Positions 3,001 to 6,000 of a stretch of DNA of 64,000 nt are shown piece after piece; the stretch's first letter is position 1; each line of letters starts with the position of its first letter. The position numbers are program-made. The DNA is from a plasmid: NCBI RefSeq assembly GCF_056746865.1, contig NZ_JBWKMP010000005.1. One strand, written 5' to 3'.

Positions 3001-6000
3001 GATACTTCACTTTCTGTCTGAATACTGATGTACCACTTACCGCAGGACTGACTGACAGTGACATTTTTCACAACGCCCGTGACCTGACGGCTGTTCCGGT
3101 AGCGCATCCAGCCAAGTTTTGGCAGAAAAATTCGGCTGCTTTCCTGATCGAGCTTAACGCCCTGCGGGTAGCGGAATGCATCATTCTGTCCCCGCTTTTT
3201 GAATCGGGGAAAAGCCGCCCGCTTCTGGAAGAAATTTTTGTAGGCCCGCTCAAGGTCTTTCAGTGACTGCTGCAATGGCTGTGATGGGGCATCTTTAAGC
3301 CATTGGGTTTCAGTGGCATTTTTCCACTCAACCAACCACGAGGCCATCCTTGGGTAAGGAATATATTTGTTCCCTGCCTCATGGTTCTCATTCTGAAGCG
3401 CCAGAGCACGATTGAAAACGAAACGACATGCGCCTGCGAAGCGCCTCATTTCTCGCTCCTGTTGACCACCGGGTCTTAACTGGAATTTAAATGCCTGTAG
3501 TCGTTTCATTCGACCATTTTAAACAAAAAAAGCCAGGTGGAAAAACTCGCCTTATATCCTCGCCCTGAAGGACGGGGTTTTACGGCGCACTGGATAATGC
3601 TGTTGGCGCTTGAGGCTTTCTGCCTCATGGCGAAAAGGTGGTTTGTATCTTGTTGTGCGGCAGAAAGAAGAAAGCCCCGTAGTTAATTTTTCATTAACCC
3701 ACGAGGCGATCCCAATGCTTGAACAACATCAGGATAGCCTCTTACCGCGCGTTACGCAAGGAGAAGAAGGCCATGAAACAGCCGAAAAACGCCCTGACCT
3801 GGTGTTTATTAATCGTGTGCTGCACATTGTTAATATTCACGTATCTGACCCGGAATCGTTTGTGCGAGGTCCGGCTGAAAGACGGAGACAGGGAGGTTAC
3901 GGCAAGTCTGGCTTACGAATCCAACGGTAAGTAGCAACCCGGAGGCGGGCGAAAGCCCGCCTTTTTGGGGATGATGTGGTTCTGGCATTAAGCGCCTTTA
4001 CAAAGGGGGTATTCTGTACGGATACCCCCTTTTTCCAAGTATTTTCAGGATATTAACTGCTGAAAATGGTATAATTAGTCAATATGACAGCAATTATTGA
4101 GGCGAGTATGCAGCCAAAAAAAACACCCGTGATTGTGGTCAAAAAACGCCGCGTTCTGGTCATGCCAGAAAATCCTGTGGTGAATGAAAAGCCGCAGGAA
4201 GTACAAAAATCAGCAGTTAATGAAAACAAGAAAGTACAGAAGAAAGATGCTGTAGCAGAGAAAACACGTAAAAAGCAGCCTCAGCCCTGGTATTTGAAAA
4301 AACAAATCACTTTTCCCCCAAAATATCCGAAAGAATATTTTGAAAAGTGTTTCAATAAAGTTCGTGCTGTTTTTCCTGAACTATGGACAGACGAAAAAAA
4401 GAACTTGCCCCTGAAAAGCGGGATTCTCCAGGACGTTGAGAAATACCTGGCGGATAACCCGGATGTGGATCTGACGATTGAAGAGTGGAATTGTGCGGTT
4501 CAGGTGATGACGTTCCGGTGGCAATATCTTCAGAATTGTACTGTACCAGGCGCAACACGTTACGACCTTTACGGGAAACCTGCTGGTACAGTAAAAAAAG
4601 CACACGCAACTTATGCGCAACTGGTTCTCGATGCCCGTAAGAAAGCCAGCGAGAAGAAACAATTAAAACGTAAGGGATAAAGCCCCGAAGGGCTTTATCA
4701 TTTCAGCCTGGCTGACTGTAGAATCCAGTGATTTTTTCCGTTTTCGTCCAGGCCGTGTTCGTAAGCTGCAAGAGCCGCTTTCATTATTGCTGTTTTTGTC
4801 TGGCCTGTTCGCAGTGCTTCCCGTTCCAGAATATCTTCGTAAACGTCCCCAAGCCGGACATTGGTCACTTTAGTTGCTCCCGATTTTTTGCGGGTAGCTT
4901 CATTGATGAATCGGGCTGTGTCTGCATTGGTTTGTTCTGTTTTTTGTCCTGGTATTACCGGAGTTTTCAAGTCAAGAGCCATTATATCACCTTTCGTGTG
5001 TTACATTAGCTTTACTGTGTAAAGTTAATGATGTAAAGCTGTCGTATTACATCCATTAGGGATTGATGCCTAACTCTTGCGCCAAAAGCTCTATTTGTGC
5101 TTTAGCTGTAGAAAGGCTGGATGCGCGACGTACATCATGAACGCCAGCGCCTTCATTACAGGCCGCTTCAAAAATATCTAAATCTGAAATACGTGTACGA
5201 AGTGGCTGTATCCACACCGGGTTCTCCCGGAGTAACTTGTCGAGATCAATCGCTGCTTTTCTGTGGCGTGGTTTTGTCGTGTTAATTCTCGTGAAAAGTA
5301 CCCAGGGTTGCAGGTCTGGATTGATCTGTTGAGCTGTGCGAACTTTTTCTGTTACATGAGTCAGCGTTTCTGCTTCGAAATCTGAAGACGGCTTAACGAG
5401 AGTAAGCAGAATGTCAGCTACAGTTAAGGCACTGCGAAATTCCTTGCTGTCATGCCCTGGACAGTCAATGATCAGCACTTCACATATTTTTTTCAGGCGC
5501 TTAATGACTTCTGATACATCGCCATACTCTTCATAAACAGGAACCGGTAATAAGCCATTCTGCTTTCTTTTTTCGTTCCAGCTAAGAATATCATTGTTTT
5601 TATCGGTCTTCAGAATGATGACCGTTCGTGAATTATTTACCAGATAAGAAGCCAGGTTTGTTGCTGTGGTGCTTTTTCCTACACCGCCTTTATCTGATGC
5701 GACAAGTAATGCTCTCCCCATAGAAACCTCGGATATACAGTGTAAAGGTTTATTTGTCTTTACATTGTATTCATTATAGTTACGTTGTAAAGATGTTTGT
5801 GTCTTTACAATGTAATTGTTTTTGTGCTTTACATTGTGTGTATGTTACCCAGTGCGCCGTAAAGCCCCGTCCTTCAGGTCGGGGATATAAGGCGCGGTTT
5901 TCCACCTAACTAGGTGTTTGCTGTTGTTCAATGTATTGGCGGATGATGGATATTGGCGCACCTCCGCAGCTACTGGCAAAATAGCTGGGACTCCATAAAA

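What the first reader, a model, noticed from the sequence alone, without database searches (positions are those of the whole stretch)
4084..4680. FinO/ProQ-domain protein with a long lysine-rich N-terminal extension in the maintenance region
Seen in sequence: the C-terminal half carries the ProQ/FinO core (PGATRYDLYGKPAG); the N-terminal ~70 aa are highly basic. Inference: an RNA chaperone that may act on plasmid antisense RNAs such as the Hok-like antidote RNA next door or the rep control RNA.
Basis: partly seen in the sequence, partly recalled or inferred. Interest (0 to 1): 0.45.

Follow-up and report, generated by a model that had tools for sequence, protein, structure and literature searches.

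The report
Known IncI2 copy-number repressor PcnR
This gene encodes PcnR, a small RNA-binding protein already shown by experiment to hold mcr-1 colistin-resistance IncI2 plasmids at about one copy per cell, so the finding is real but already explained.

Summary
The ORF at 4084..4680 (+) is real. It encodes a 198-aa protein with a basic, lysine-rich, disordered N-terminal half. Residues 87-193 form a FinO/ProQ domain (Pfam PF04352, E 4e-17). An AlphaFold model has pLDDT above 90 over that domain, and its 27 best PDB fold matches are all FinO-domain proteins. The protein is 100% identical over all 198 residues to the ProQ/FINO protein of pHNSHP45. That protein is PcnR, characterised by Yang et al. 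(NAR 2021, PMC8053102). Deleting pcnR raises IncI2 copy number about 10-fold. PcnR represses repA by binding the stem-loop around the start codon of the repR leader ORF. It did not bind the rep antisense RNA in EMSA, and it still repressed when that RNA was absent. The window is an mcr-1 IncI2 plasmid opened at the repA start codon, so the target stem-loop lies just outside its 5' edge. An action on Sok has never been tested. The basic N-terminal extension is usual for plasmid FinO-like proteins. One small new point: the true start may be Met9, giving 190 aa. Novelty: already known. Interest is low.

The parts
4084..4680 (+). pcnR coding sequence as annotated (198 aa plus stop), a ProQ/FinO-family plasmid copy-number repressor
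   Evidence: ORF list. 100% identical to pHNSHP45 WP_000125165.1. Function from PMC8053102.
4108..4110 (+). Alternative and possibly true start codon (Met9, giving a 190-aa protein)
   Evidence: GAGG at 4099-4102 lies 5 nt upstream, whereas ATG 4084 has no SD. The paper numbers the domain 'PcnR79-190', which equals 87-198 here. Gene callers give 190/191-aa versions, P0011 and P0013. Homologues have only 5-11 residues before the PV motif. Inference, not shown.
4067..4075 (+). Candidate extended -10 promoter element TGgTATAAT for pcnR
   Evidence: Read directly from the sequence. Invariant in pHNSHP45 and pBK15692. The consensus scan did not report it because no good -35 is present. Not mapped experimentally.
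4084..4341 (+). Basic, lysine-rich N-terminal extension (aa 1-86), predicted disordered
   Evidence: Net charge +12 and pI 10.1. In the AlphaFold model, 10-residue block mean pLDDT is 56-78 over residues 1-80 and there is no secondary structure before residue 69.
4126..4152 (+). Conserved N-terminal motif PVIVVKKRR (aa 15-23)
   Evidence: P15 is invariant and V16 at least 90% conserved across 15 plasmid FinO-like proteins, including YafB/FopA-like, the IncFII(K) protein and FinO. Its role has not been tested.
4342..4662 (+). FinO/ProQ RNA-binding domain (aa 87-193)
   Evidence: Pfam PF04352, E 4.4e-17. Block mean pLDDT is 82-98 from residue 81. Foldseek matches RocC 7rgt/7rgu at E 1e-7 with target-normalised TM-score (TMt) up to 0.84, and FinO 1dvo at E 4e-6. 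Family-conserved P98, P109, K111, G113, I114, Y148, G156, R159, G164 and A178 are all present.
4546..4587 (+). PGATRYDLYGKPAG motif containing R159, the equivalent of ProQ R80
   Evidence: Pairwise alignment to E. coli ProQ.
4676..4699 (.). GC-rich hairpin shared by the convergent pcnR and copG-like genes; probable bidirectional terminator
   Evidence: The terminator scan reports it on the - strand. The sequence is GATAAAGCCCCGAAGGGCTTTATC. The U-tail on the + strand is weak.
1..1029 (+). repA, the replication initiator whose translation PcnR represses. The last 20 nt of the repR leader ORF overlap window 1-20
   Evidence: NCBIfam RepA_IncFII_LM, 308 bits. Window base 1 equals pHNSHP45 base 496, the repA GTG. 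The repR ATG and its stem-loop lie 14-44 nt 5' of the window and are absent from it.

Best explanation
The ORF is pcnR, the plasmid copy-number repressor of IncI2 plasmids. Its product has a C-terminal FinO/ProQ RNA-binding domain and a basic, disordered N-terminal extension. According to published experiments on the identical protein, PcnR binds the stem-loop that holds the start codon of the repR leader ORF in the repR-repA mRNA. This is thought to stabilise the stem-loop and block repR translation. RepA translation is coupled to repR, so less RepA is made and the plasmid stays at about one copy per cell. That limits mcr-1 dosage and the plasmid's fitness cost. Shown by others: the copy-number effect, repA-lacZ repression, independence from the antisense RNA, dependence on the stem, and EMSA binding to a 47-nt RNA. 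Shown here: sequence identity, domain, fold and genomic context. Inferred: the N-terminal extension contributes specificity or RNA remodelling, as in FinO, and translation may start at Met9.
For: The protein is identical to pHNSHP45 PcnR over 198/198 residues (locus annotation). The paper names orf00049 as the ProQ/FinO gene next to the CopG-family orf00050. That matches the gene order hok - ProQ/FINO - CopG-like - ParA in the window and in pHNSHP45. The window is an IncI2 backbone carrying mcr-1. Domain and fold evidence: Pfam PF04352 E 4.4e-17; a profile of relatives hits ProQ 5nb9 at 4.5e-56, RocC at about 1e-28 and FinO 1dvo at 8.6e-18; the AlphaFold model has mean pLDDT 82.8, with most of the domain above 90; the 27 best Foldseek PDB matches are all FinO-domain structures. 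Published function: a roughly 10-fold copy-number increase in the deletion mutant, repression of repA-lacZ, stem mutations that abolish repression, and EMSA binding of the repR stem-loop. The review PMC9977716 summarises the same mechanism. The module is conserved: 526 PLSDB plasmids encode the protein at 95% identity or more.
Against: The mechanism rests on one study that used reporter fusions and in-vitro EMSA. No in-vivo RNA interactome (CLIP or RIP-seq) exists for PcnR. The repR stem-loop is thermodynamically unremarkable when folded alone (-10.2 kcal/mol, z = -0.57). FinO-domain proteins usually recognise terminator hairpins with 3' U-tails, and this stem-loop is not one. FopA, described in the review as phylogenetically close to PcnR, works through the antisense RNA Inc, so the negative antisense-RNA EMSA could be a false negative. 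The target stem-loop lies outside the window, so it could not be inspected for this particular plasmid.
Confidence: 0.9

Rival explanations
1. PcnR works like FopA or FinO. It binds and stabilises the cis-encoded rep antisense RNA and speeds its pairing with the repA leader. On this view the reported direct binding to mRNA is secondary.
For: The nearest relatives found in the plasmid collection are the roughly 35%-identical ProQ/FINO proteins, one of them the yafB gene of an IncI-gamma/K1 plasmid. The review calls PcnR phylogenetically close to FopA, which acts through the Inc antisense RNA. IncI2 does have an antisense RNA of about 108 nt with a terminator hairpin, the usual kind of FinO-domain ligand.
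Against: Purified PcnR did not shift the antisense RNA in EMSA. PcnR still repressed repA-lacZ when the antisense promoter was inactivated.
Confidence: 0.07
2. PcnR also, or mainly, acts on the adjacent hok/sok type I toxin-antitoxin RNAs. It could bind Sok or one of the two hairpins at the 3' end of the hok mRNA, just upstream of pcnR.
For: pcnR starts about 150 nt after the hok stop codon. Two strong hairpins followed by U-tracts lie in between (z = -5.0). From general knowledge, chromosomal ProQ binds many type I antitoxin RNAs.
Against: No experiment addresses this. The pcnR deletion phenotype was fully explained by copy number and mcr-1 dosage, because deleting mcr-1 rescued growth. The two hairpins belong to the hok locus: hok homology in IncF plasmids that have no adjacent pcnR reaches window positions of about 4008-4036.
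Confidence: 0.1
3. PcnR is a FinO-type fertility inhibitor whose primary role is to repress conjugative transfer.
For: Deleting pcnR raised transfer frequency about 8-fold. The protein has the FinO fold.
Against: The effect is far smaller than the roughly 1000-fold effect of FinO. finO did not complement the pcnR deletion. A 10-fold rise in copy number could itself explain an 8-fold rise in transfer. IncI2 has a MOBP/MPF_T transfer system, not the F-type system that FinO regulates through FinP and traJ; that contrast is from general knowledge.
Confidence: 0.03

Closest known systems
PcnR of IncI2 plasmid pHNSHP45 (Yang et al., Nucleic Acids Res 2021; PMC8053102)
   Same: Identical protein, 198/198 residues. 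Same gene order (repA ... hok/sok - pcnR - copG-like - parA), same IncI2 backbone, and mcr-1 present.
   Different: The protein does not differ. The window's plasmid has IS200/IS605-type (tnpB) insertions on both sides of the module, where pHNSHP45 has an IS66-family element between repA and hok. The promoter region differs at 3 bases.
FopA, and the related YafB of IncI1 / IncI-gamma/K plasmids (pCol1B9)
   Same: A plasmid-encoded FinO-domain protein of similar length with a basic N-terminal extension and the same PVIVVKKRR motif. YafB is about 34-36% identical. Like PcnR, FopA represses the plasmid's own replication initiator and lowers fitness cost.
   Different: [quoted passage not shown] PcnR is reported to bind the sense leader stem-loop independently of the antisense RNA.
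FinO of F-like plasmids (PDB 1DVO)
   Same: Same fold (Foldseek E 4e-6; profile E 8.6e-18).
   Different: FinO targets FinP and traJ to repress conjugation. It is only about 21% identical, and finO does not complement a pcnR deletion.
Chromosomal ProQ (E. coli, PDB 5NB9) and RocC (Legionella, PDB 7RGT/7RGU)
   Same: Same FinO domain. The core residues K35, G37, Y70, R80 and D82 of ProQ are conserved as K111, G113, Y148, R159 and D161.
   Different: PcnR has no Tudor or C-terminal domain. Several basic ProQ surface residues are not basic in PcnR: R32, K54, R58, R62, R69, R100 and K101 align with L108, I132, N136, Q140, Q147, Q179 and L180. ProQ is a global regulator and RocC targets one sRNA, whereas PcnR is a plasmid-specific regulator.

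Membership tests
FinO/ProQ family (Pfam PF04352) | Significant match to the ProQ/FINO profile over the whole domain | tested here: met
   PF04352 covers residues 87-193 and model positions 5-107 of 109, with E 4.4e-17 and 62.5 bits. A profile of 68 relatives hits ProQ, RocC, FinO and NMB1681 structures at E 4.5e-56 to 2.6e-10.
FinO/ProQ family (Pfam PF04352) | FinO-domain fold (helical bowl with a beta-hairpin) | tested here: met
   The AlphaFold model has helices 83-96, 114-124, 132-144, 146-152 and 172-197 and strands 158-160 and 166-169, with 10-residue block mean pLDDT of 82-98 over residues 81-198. Foldseek ranks 1-27 in the PDB are all FinO-domain proteins, with target-normalised TM-score (TMt) up to 0.84 and rmsd 2.4 A against RocC.
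FinO/ProQ family (Pfam PF04352) | Conserved core residues, including the arginine equivalent to ProQ R80 and the tyrosine equivalent to Y70 | tested here: met
   R159 and Y148 are present. So are all ten columns that are at least 90% conserved in the alignment: P98, P109, K111, G113, I114, Y148, G156, R159, G164 and A178.
FinO/ProQ family (Pfam PF04352) | Binds structured RNA | not testable with these tools
   Published EMSA with the identical protein shows binding to a 47-nt repR stem-loop RNA and no binding to the antisense RNA.
PcnR (IncI2 plasmid copy-number repressor) | Sequence identity to the characterised pHNSHP45 protein | tested here: met
   198/198 identical by BLASTP, E 2e-150.
PcnR (IncI2 plasmid copy-number repressor) | Encoded on an IncI2 replicon, next to the CopG-like gene and parA and downstream of repA and hok/sok | tested here: met
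   Gene order in the window matches pHNSHP45 and pBK15692, both typed IncI2. The rest of the window matches IncI2 transfer and pil genes at 99% identity.
PcnR (IncI2 plasmid copy-number repressor) | Presence of the cognate repR leader stem-loop target on the same plasmid | tested here: inconclusive
   The window begins at the repA GVG-equivalent start codon GTG, so only the last 20 nt of repR are included. The stem-loop sequence is not in the window. It is expected just upstream on the circular plasmid.
PcnR (IncI2 plasmid copy-number repressor) | Deletion raises copy number about 10-fold and imposes an mcr-1-dependent fitness cost | not testable with these tools
   Shown for pHNSHP45 in PMC8053102. 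Not tested for this plasmid.
FopA-type regulator (antisense-RNA-dependent) | Binds and stabilises the rep antisense RNA | not testable with these tools
   Published EMSA was negative for PcnR with the IncI2 antisense RNA. PcnR is therefore a relative of FopA, with about 35% identity to the FopA-like YafB, but is not reported to share this feature.

The most novel reading that the evidence does not exclude
PcnR may have RNA ligands beyond the repR leader. Candidates are Sok or the terminator hairpins at the 3' end of the hok mRNA next door, and transfer-gene transcripts. The conserved N-terminal PVIVVKKRR motif, shared with YafB (FopA-like), the IncFII(K) ProQ/FinO protein and FinO, may be a so far uncharacterised element that sets RNA specificity or remodelling activity. 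The protein made in cells may also start at Met9 (190 aa) rather than at the annotated Met1.
Probability: 0.2. Interest if true: 0.35.

Novelty: already known. Interest (0 to 1): 0.1.

Why it matters
PcnR keeps mcr-1-bearing IncI2 plasmids at single copy. That limits the toxicity of MCR-1 and helps these colistin-resistance plasmids persist, so the gene is medically relevant. All of this was published in 2021 for the identical protein. The scan therefore rediscovered a known regulator. The only additions here are an independent check of domain and fold, a possible start-codon correction, and the observation that the basic N-terminal motif is shared across plasmid FinO-like proteins.

Tried and rejected
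1. I looked for the PcnR target, the repR stem-loop, inside the window. It is absent, with 0 matches at up to 3 mismatches, because the window starts at the repA GTG.

2. The word-indexed protein search returned only near-identical IncI2 proteins. The exhaustive representative search was needed to obtain diverse relatives.

3. I considered the two hairpins between hok and pcnR as possible pcnR-specific RNA elements. I rejected this because hok homology in IncF plasmids without an adjacent pcnR extends over them.

4. I considered the 7-bp inverted repeat over the pcnR promoter (4042-4048 / 4060-4066) as an operator. It is imperfect in pHNSHP45, so I did not pursue it.

5. The simple promoter scan did not report a pcnR promoter. 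The extended -10 element was read by eye only.

6. The paper's supplementary files, which hold the PcnR length, primers and predicted structure, are not held as text. The 190-aa versus 198-aa question could not be settled.

7. L002 did not appear in the Python sandbox, so those comparisons were done with the other tools.

8. A spurious ORF is excluded by the domain, the fold and conservation in more than 500 plasmids.

Full report
**Observation.** The + strand carries an uninterrupted ORF from ATG 4084 to the stop codon at 4678-4680, encoding 198 aa.
- Residues 1-75 contain 15 Lys and 3 Arg against 7 acidic residues, giving net +11 and pI 10.2.
- Residues 87-193 are only mildly basic. The last 23 residues are basic again.
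- The description 'FinO/ProQ core in the C-terminal half, lysine-rich basic N-terminal ~70 aa' is therefore accurate.

**Domain and fold.**
- Pfam ProQ/FINO (PF04352) matches residues 87-193 over nearly the whole model, with E 4.4e-17.
- The NCBIfam ProQ and FinO models match below their curated cut-offs. The protein is therefore a family member but is neither ProQ nor FinO proper.
- By sequence alone it finds E. coli ProQ NTD (5nb9, E 1.5e-9) and Legionella RocC.
- An exhaustive search of 1.84 billion cluster representatives gave 98 relatives.
- A profile of 68 of them (A1) hits ProQ, RocC, FinO (1dvo, E 8.6e-18) and NMB1681.
- An AlphaFold2 model built on that alignment has mean pLDDT 82.8. 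Most of the domain is above 90. Before residue 83 the only secondary structure is a four-residue helix (69-72), and 10-residue block mean pLDDT is 56-78 over residues 1-80.
- Foldseek against the PDB returns only FinO-domain proteins in ranks 1-27. RocC scores E 1e-7 with target-normalised TM-score (TMt) up to 0.84, and FinO scores E 4e-6.
- All ten columns that are at least 90% conserved in the family alignment carry the consensus residue in this protein. They include R159 (ProQ R80) and Y148 (ProQ Y70).
- Several basic surface residues of ProQ are not basic here. That fits a different and narrower RNA specificity, but this is inference.

**Identity.**
- The 2.2-kb segment hok - ORF - copG-like - parA matches more than 500 plasmids at 95% identity or better. 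The annotated examples are typed IncI2, for example pBK15692.
- The remainder of the window matches IncI2 transfer and pil genes at 99%.
- mcr-1 begins at window 24449.
- The ORF product is 198/198 identical to WP_000125165.1 of pHNSHP45.
- In Yang et al. (Nucleic Acids Res 2021, PMC8053102), the ProQ/FinO-family gene of pHNSHP45 is orf00049, next to the CopG-family orf00050. The authors named it pcnR, for plasmid copy number repressor.
- The feature is therefore an already characterised gene.

**Published mechanism (not re-tested here).**
- Deleting pcnR slows host growth and raises copy number about 10-fold. The cost is due to mcr-1 dosage.
- repA translation is coupled to a leader ORF, repR. 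It is also repressed by an antisense RNA of about 108 nt.
- PcnR represses a repA-lacZ fusion even when the antisense promoter is inactivated.
- Purified PcnR does not shift the antisense RNA.
- Mutations that break the stem around the repR start codon abolish repression. Loop mutations do not.
- A 47-nt RNA containing that stem-loop is shifted by PcnR.
- The authors propose that PcnR stabilises the stem-loop and blocks repR initiation, and hence RepA synthesis.
- A 2023 review describes PcnR as phylogenetically close to FopA but mechanistically different. FopA acts through the antisense RNA Inc.
- I found no later primary work on PcnR in the held library.

**What the window does and does not contain.**
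- Window base 1 is the repA GTG, which is pHNSHP45 base 496.
- Only the last 20 nt of repR fall inside the window.
- The repR ATG and its stem-loop would lie 14-44 nt before base 1, and they are not found anywhere in the window.
- Folded alone, the pHNSHP45 stem-loop is weak (-10.2 kcal/mol, z = -0.57). Its significance therefore rests on the published mutagenesis and not on thermodynamics.

- 'RNA chaperone acting on plasmid RNAs, perhaps rep control' has the right domain and the right pathway.
- The specific ligand proposed, the rep antisense RNA, is contradicted by the published EMSA and genetics.
- The Sok idea is untested.
- The two strong hairpins between hok and pcnR belong to the 3' end of the hok transcript. 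hok homology in IncF plasmids lacking an adjacent pcnR extends across them.
- I rate the interpretation partly supported.

**N-terminal extension.**
- An alignment of PcnR with plasmid relatives shows an invariant Pro and a conserved PV(I/L)(V/T)(V/L)KKR-type motif at PcnR residues 15-23. A variable, basic, low-complexity stretch follows.
- The relatives include IncI-gamma/K1 YafB (FopA-like), the IncFII ProQ/FINO protein of a Klebsiella KPC plasmid, several metagenomic representatives, and FinO.
- The review notes that such extensions are usual in plasmid FinO-like proteins. They are thought to supply chaperone activity or to guard specificity.
- The extension is therefore typical and not a distinguishing oddity.

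**Start codon (minor new point, inference).**
- ATG 4084 has no Shine-Dalgarno sequence. It lies 8 nt after a TGgTATAAT extended -10 element (4067-4075).
- ATG 4108 (Met9) is preceded by GAGG at a 5-nt spacing. Both elements are invariant in pHNSHP45 and pBK15692.
- The paper's domain numbering, 'PcnR79-190', equals 87-198 in the 198-aa numbering. That span is exactly the Pfam start to the C-terminus, which suggests the authors worked with a 190-aa protein.
- Gene callers disagree, giving 190, 191, 198 and 204-205 aa.
- With Met9 the distance from the N-terminus to the PV motif (6 residues) matches FinO and the IncFII protein.

**Verdict.** The gene is PcnR and its function and mechanism are already published. 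Novelty: already known. Interest is low. What remains open is the in-vivo RNA interactome, the role of the N-terminal motif, and the true N-terminus.

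Noticed in passing
window 2245-3560 (-) and 5800-7610: Two IS200/IS605-type elements bracket the hok-pcnR-copG-parA module. One is a tnpB-only copy (ORF 2301..3509, - strand). The other is a tnpA(Y1)+tnpB copy (5906..6442 on - and 6345..7553 on +). NCBIfam guided_TnpB scores 385 and 391 bits, and transpos_IS200 scores 146 bits. Neither insertion is present at these sites in pBK15692, and pHNSHP45 has an IS66-family element between repA and hok instead.
   Followed up: partly
window 2245-2428 (-) and 7426-7609 (+): Sub-threshold Rfam hits to HgcC (27-33 bits), RAGATH-18 (28 bits) and sot0042 lie at the 3' end of each tnpB gene. These are probably the omega/reRNA guide scaffolds of the TnpB nucleases.
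   Followed up: no
window 24449 (+): An exact match to the first 41 nt of mcr-1, so the window's IncI2 plasmid carries the colistin-resistance gene whose dosage PcnR is reported to limit.
   Followed up: partly
window 3604-3775 and 3779-3934: An Rfam sok family match (98 bits, above the gathering score) is reported on the + strand, the same strand as hok, although Sok is antisense to the hok leader. The model evidently spans the overlap region. hok encodes a 51-aa Hok-family toxin (NCBIfam 92 bits).
   Followed up: no
window 3938-3969 and 4002-4034 (+): Two strong GC-rich hairpins, each followed by a U-tract, lie between the hok stop codon and the pcnR promoter (fold z = -5.0). Homology with IncF hok loci extends to about 4008 or 4036, so they appear to be the 3' end of the hok mRNA and not part of pcnR.
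   Followed up: partly
window 4126-4152 (PcnR aa 15-23): The motif PVIVVKKRR is conserved near the N-terminus of plasmid FinO-like proteins from IncI2, IncI-gamma/K1, IncFII and F (FinO has KRPVLTLKRK). I found no described function for it.
   Followed up: partly
window 4042-4048 / 4060-4066: A perfect 7-bp inverted repeat, TTTTCAG...CTGAAAA, overlaps the putative pcnR promoter. It is imperfect in pHNSHP45, so it is probably not a conserved operator.
   Followed up: yes
window 4698-4982 (-): The convergent neighbour is annotated 'CopG family transcriptional regulator' in some records (orf00050 of pHNSHP45). It has no NCBIfam match. Published deletion of it had little effect on fitness. It sits upstream of the ParA-family ATPase gene and may be the ParB-like or centromere-binding partner.
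   Followed up: no
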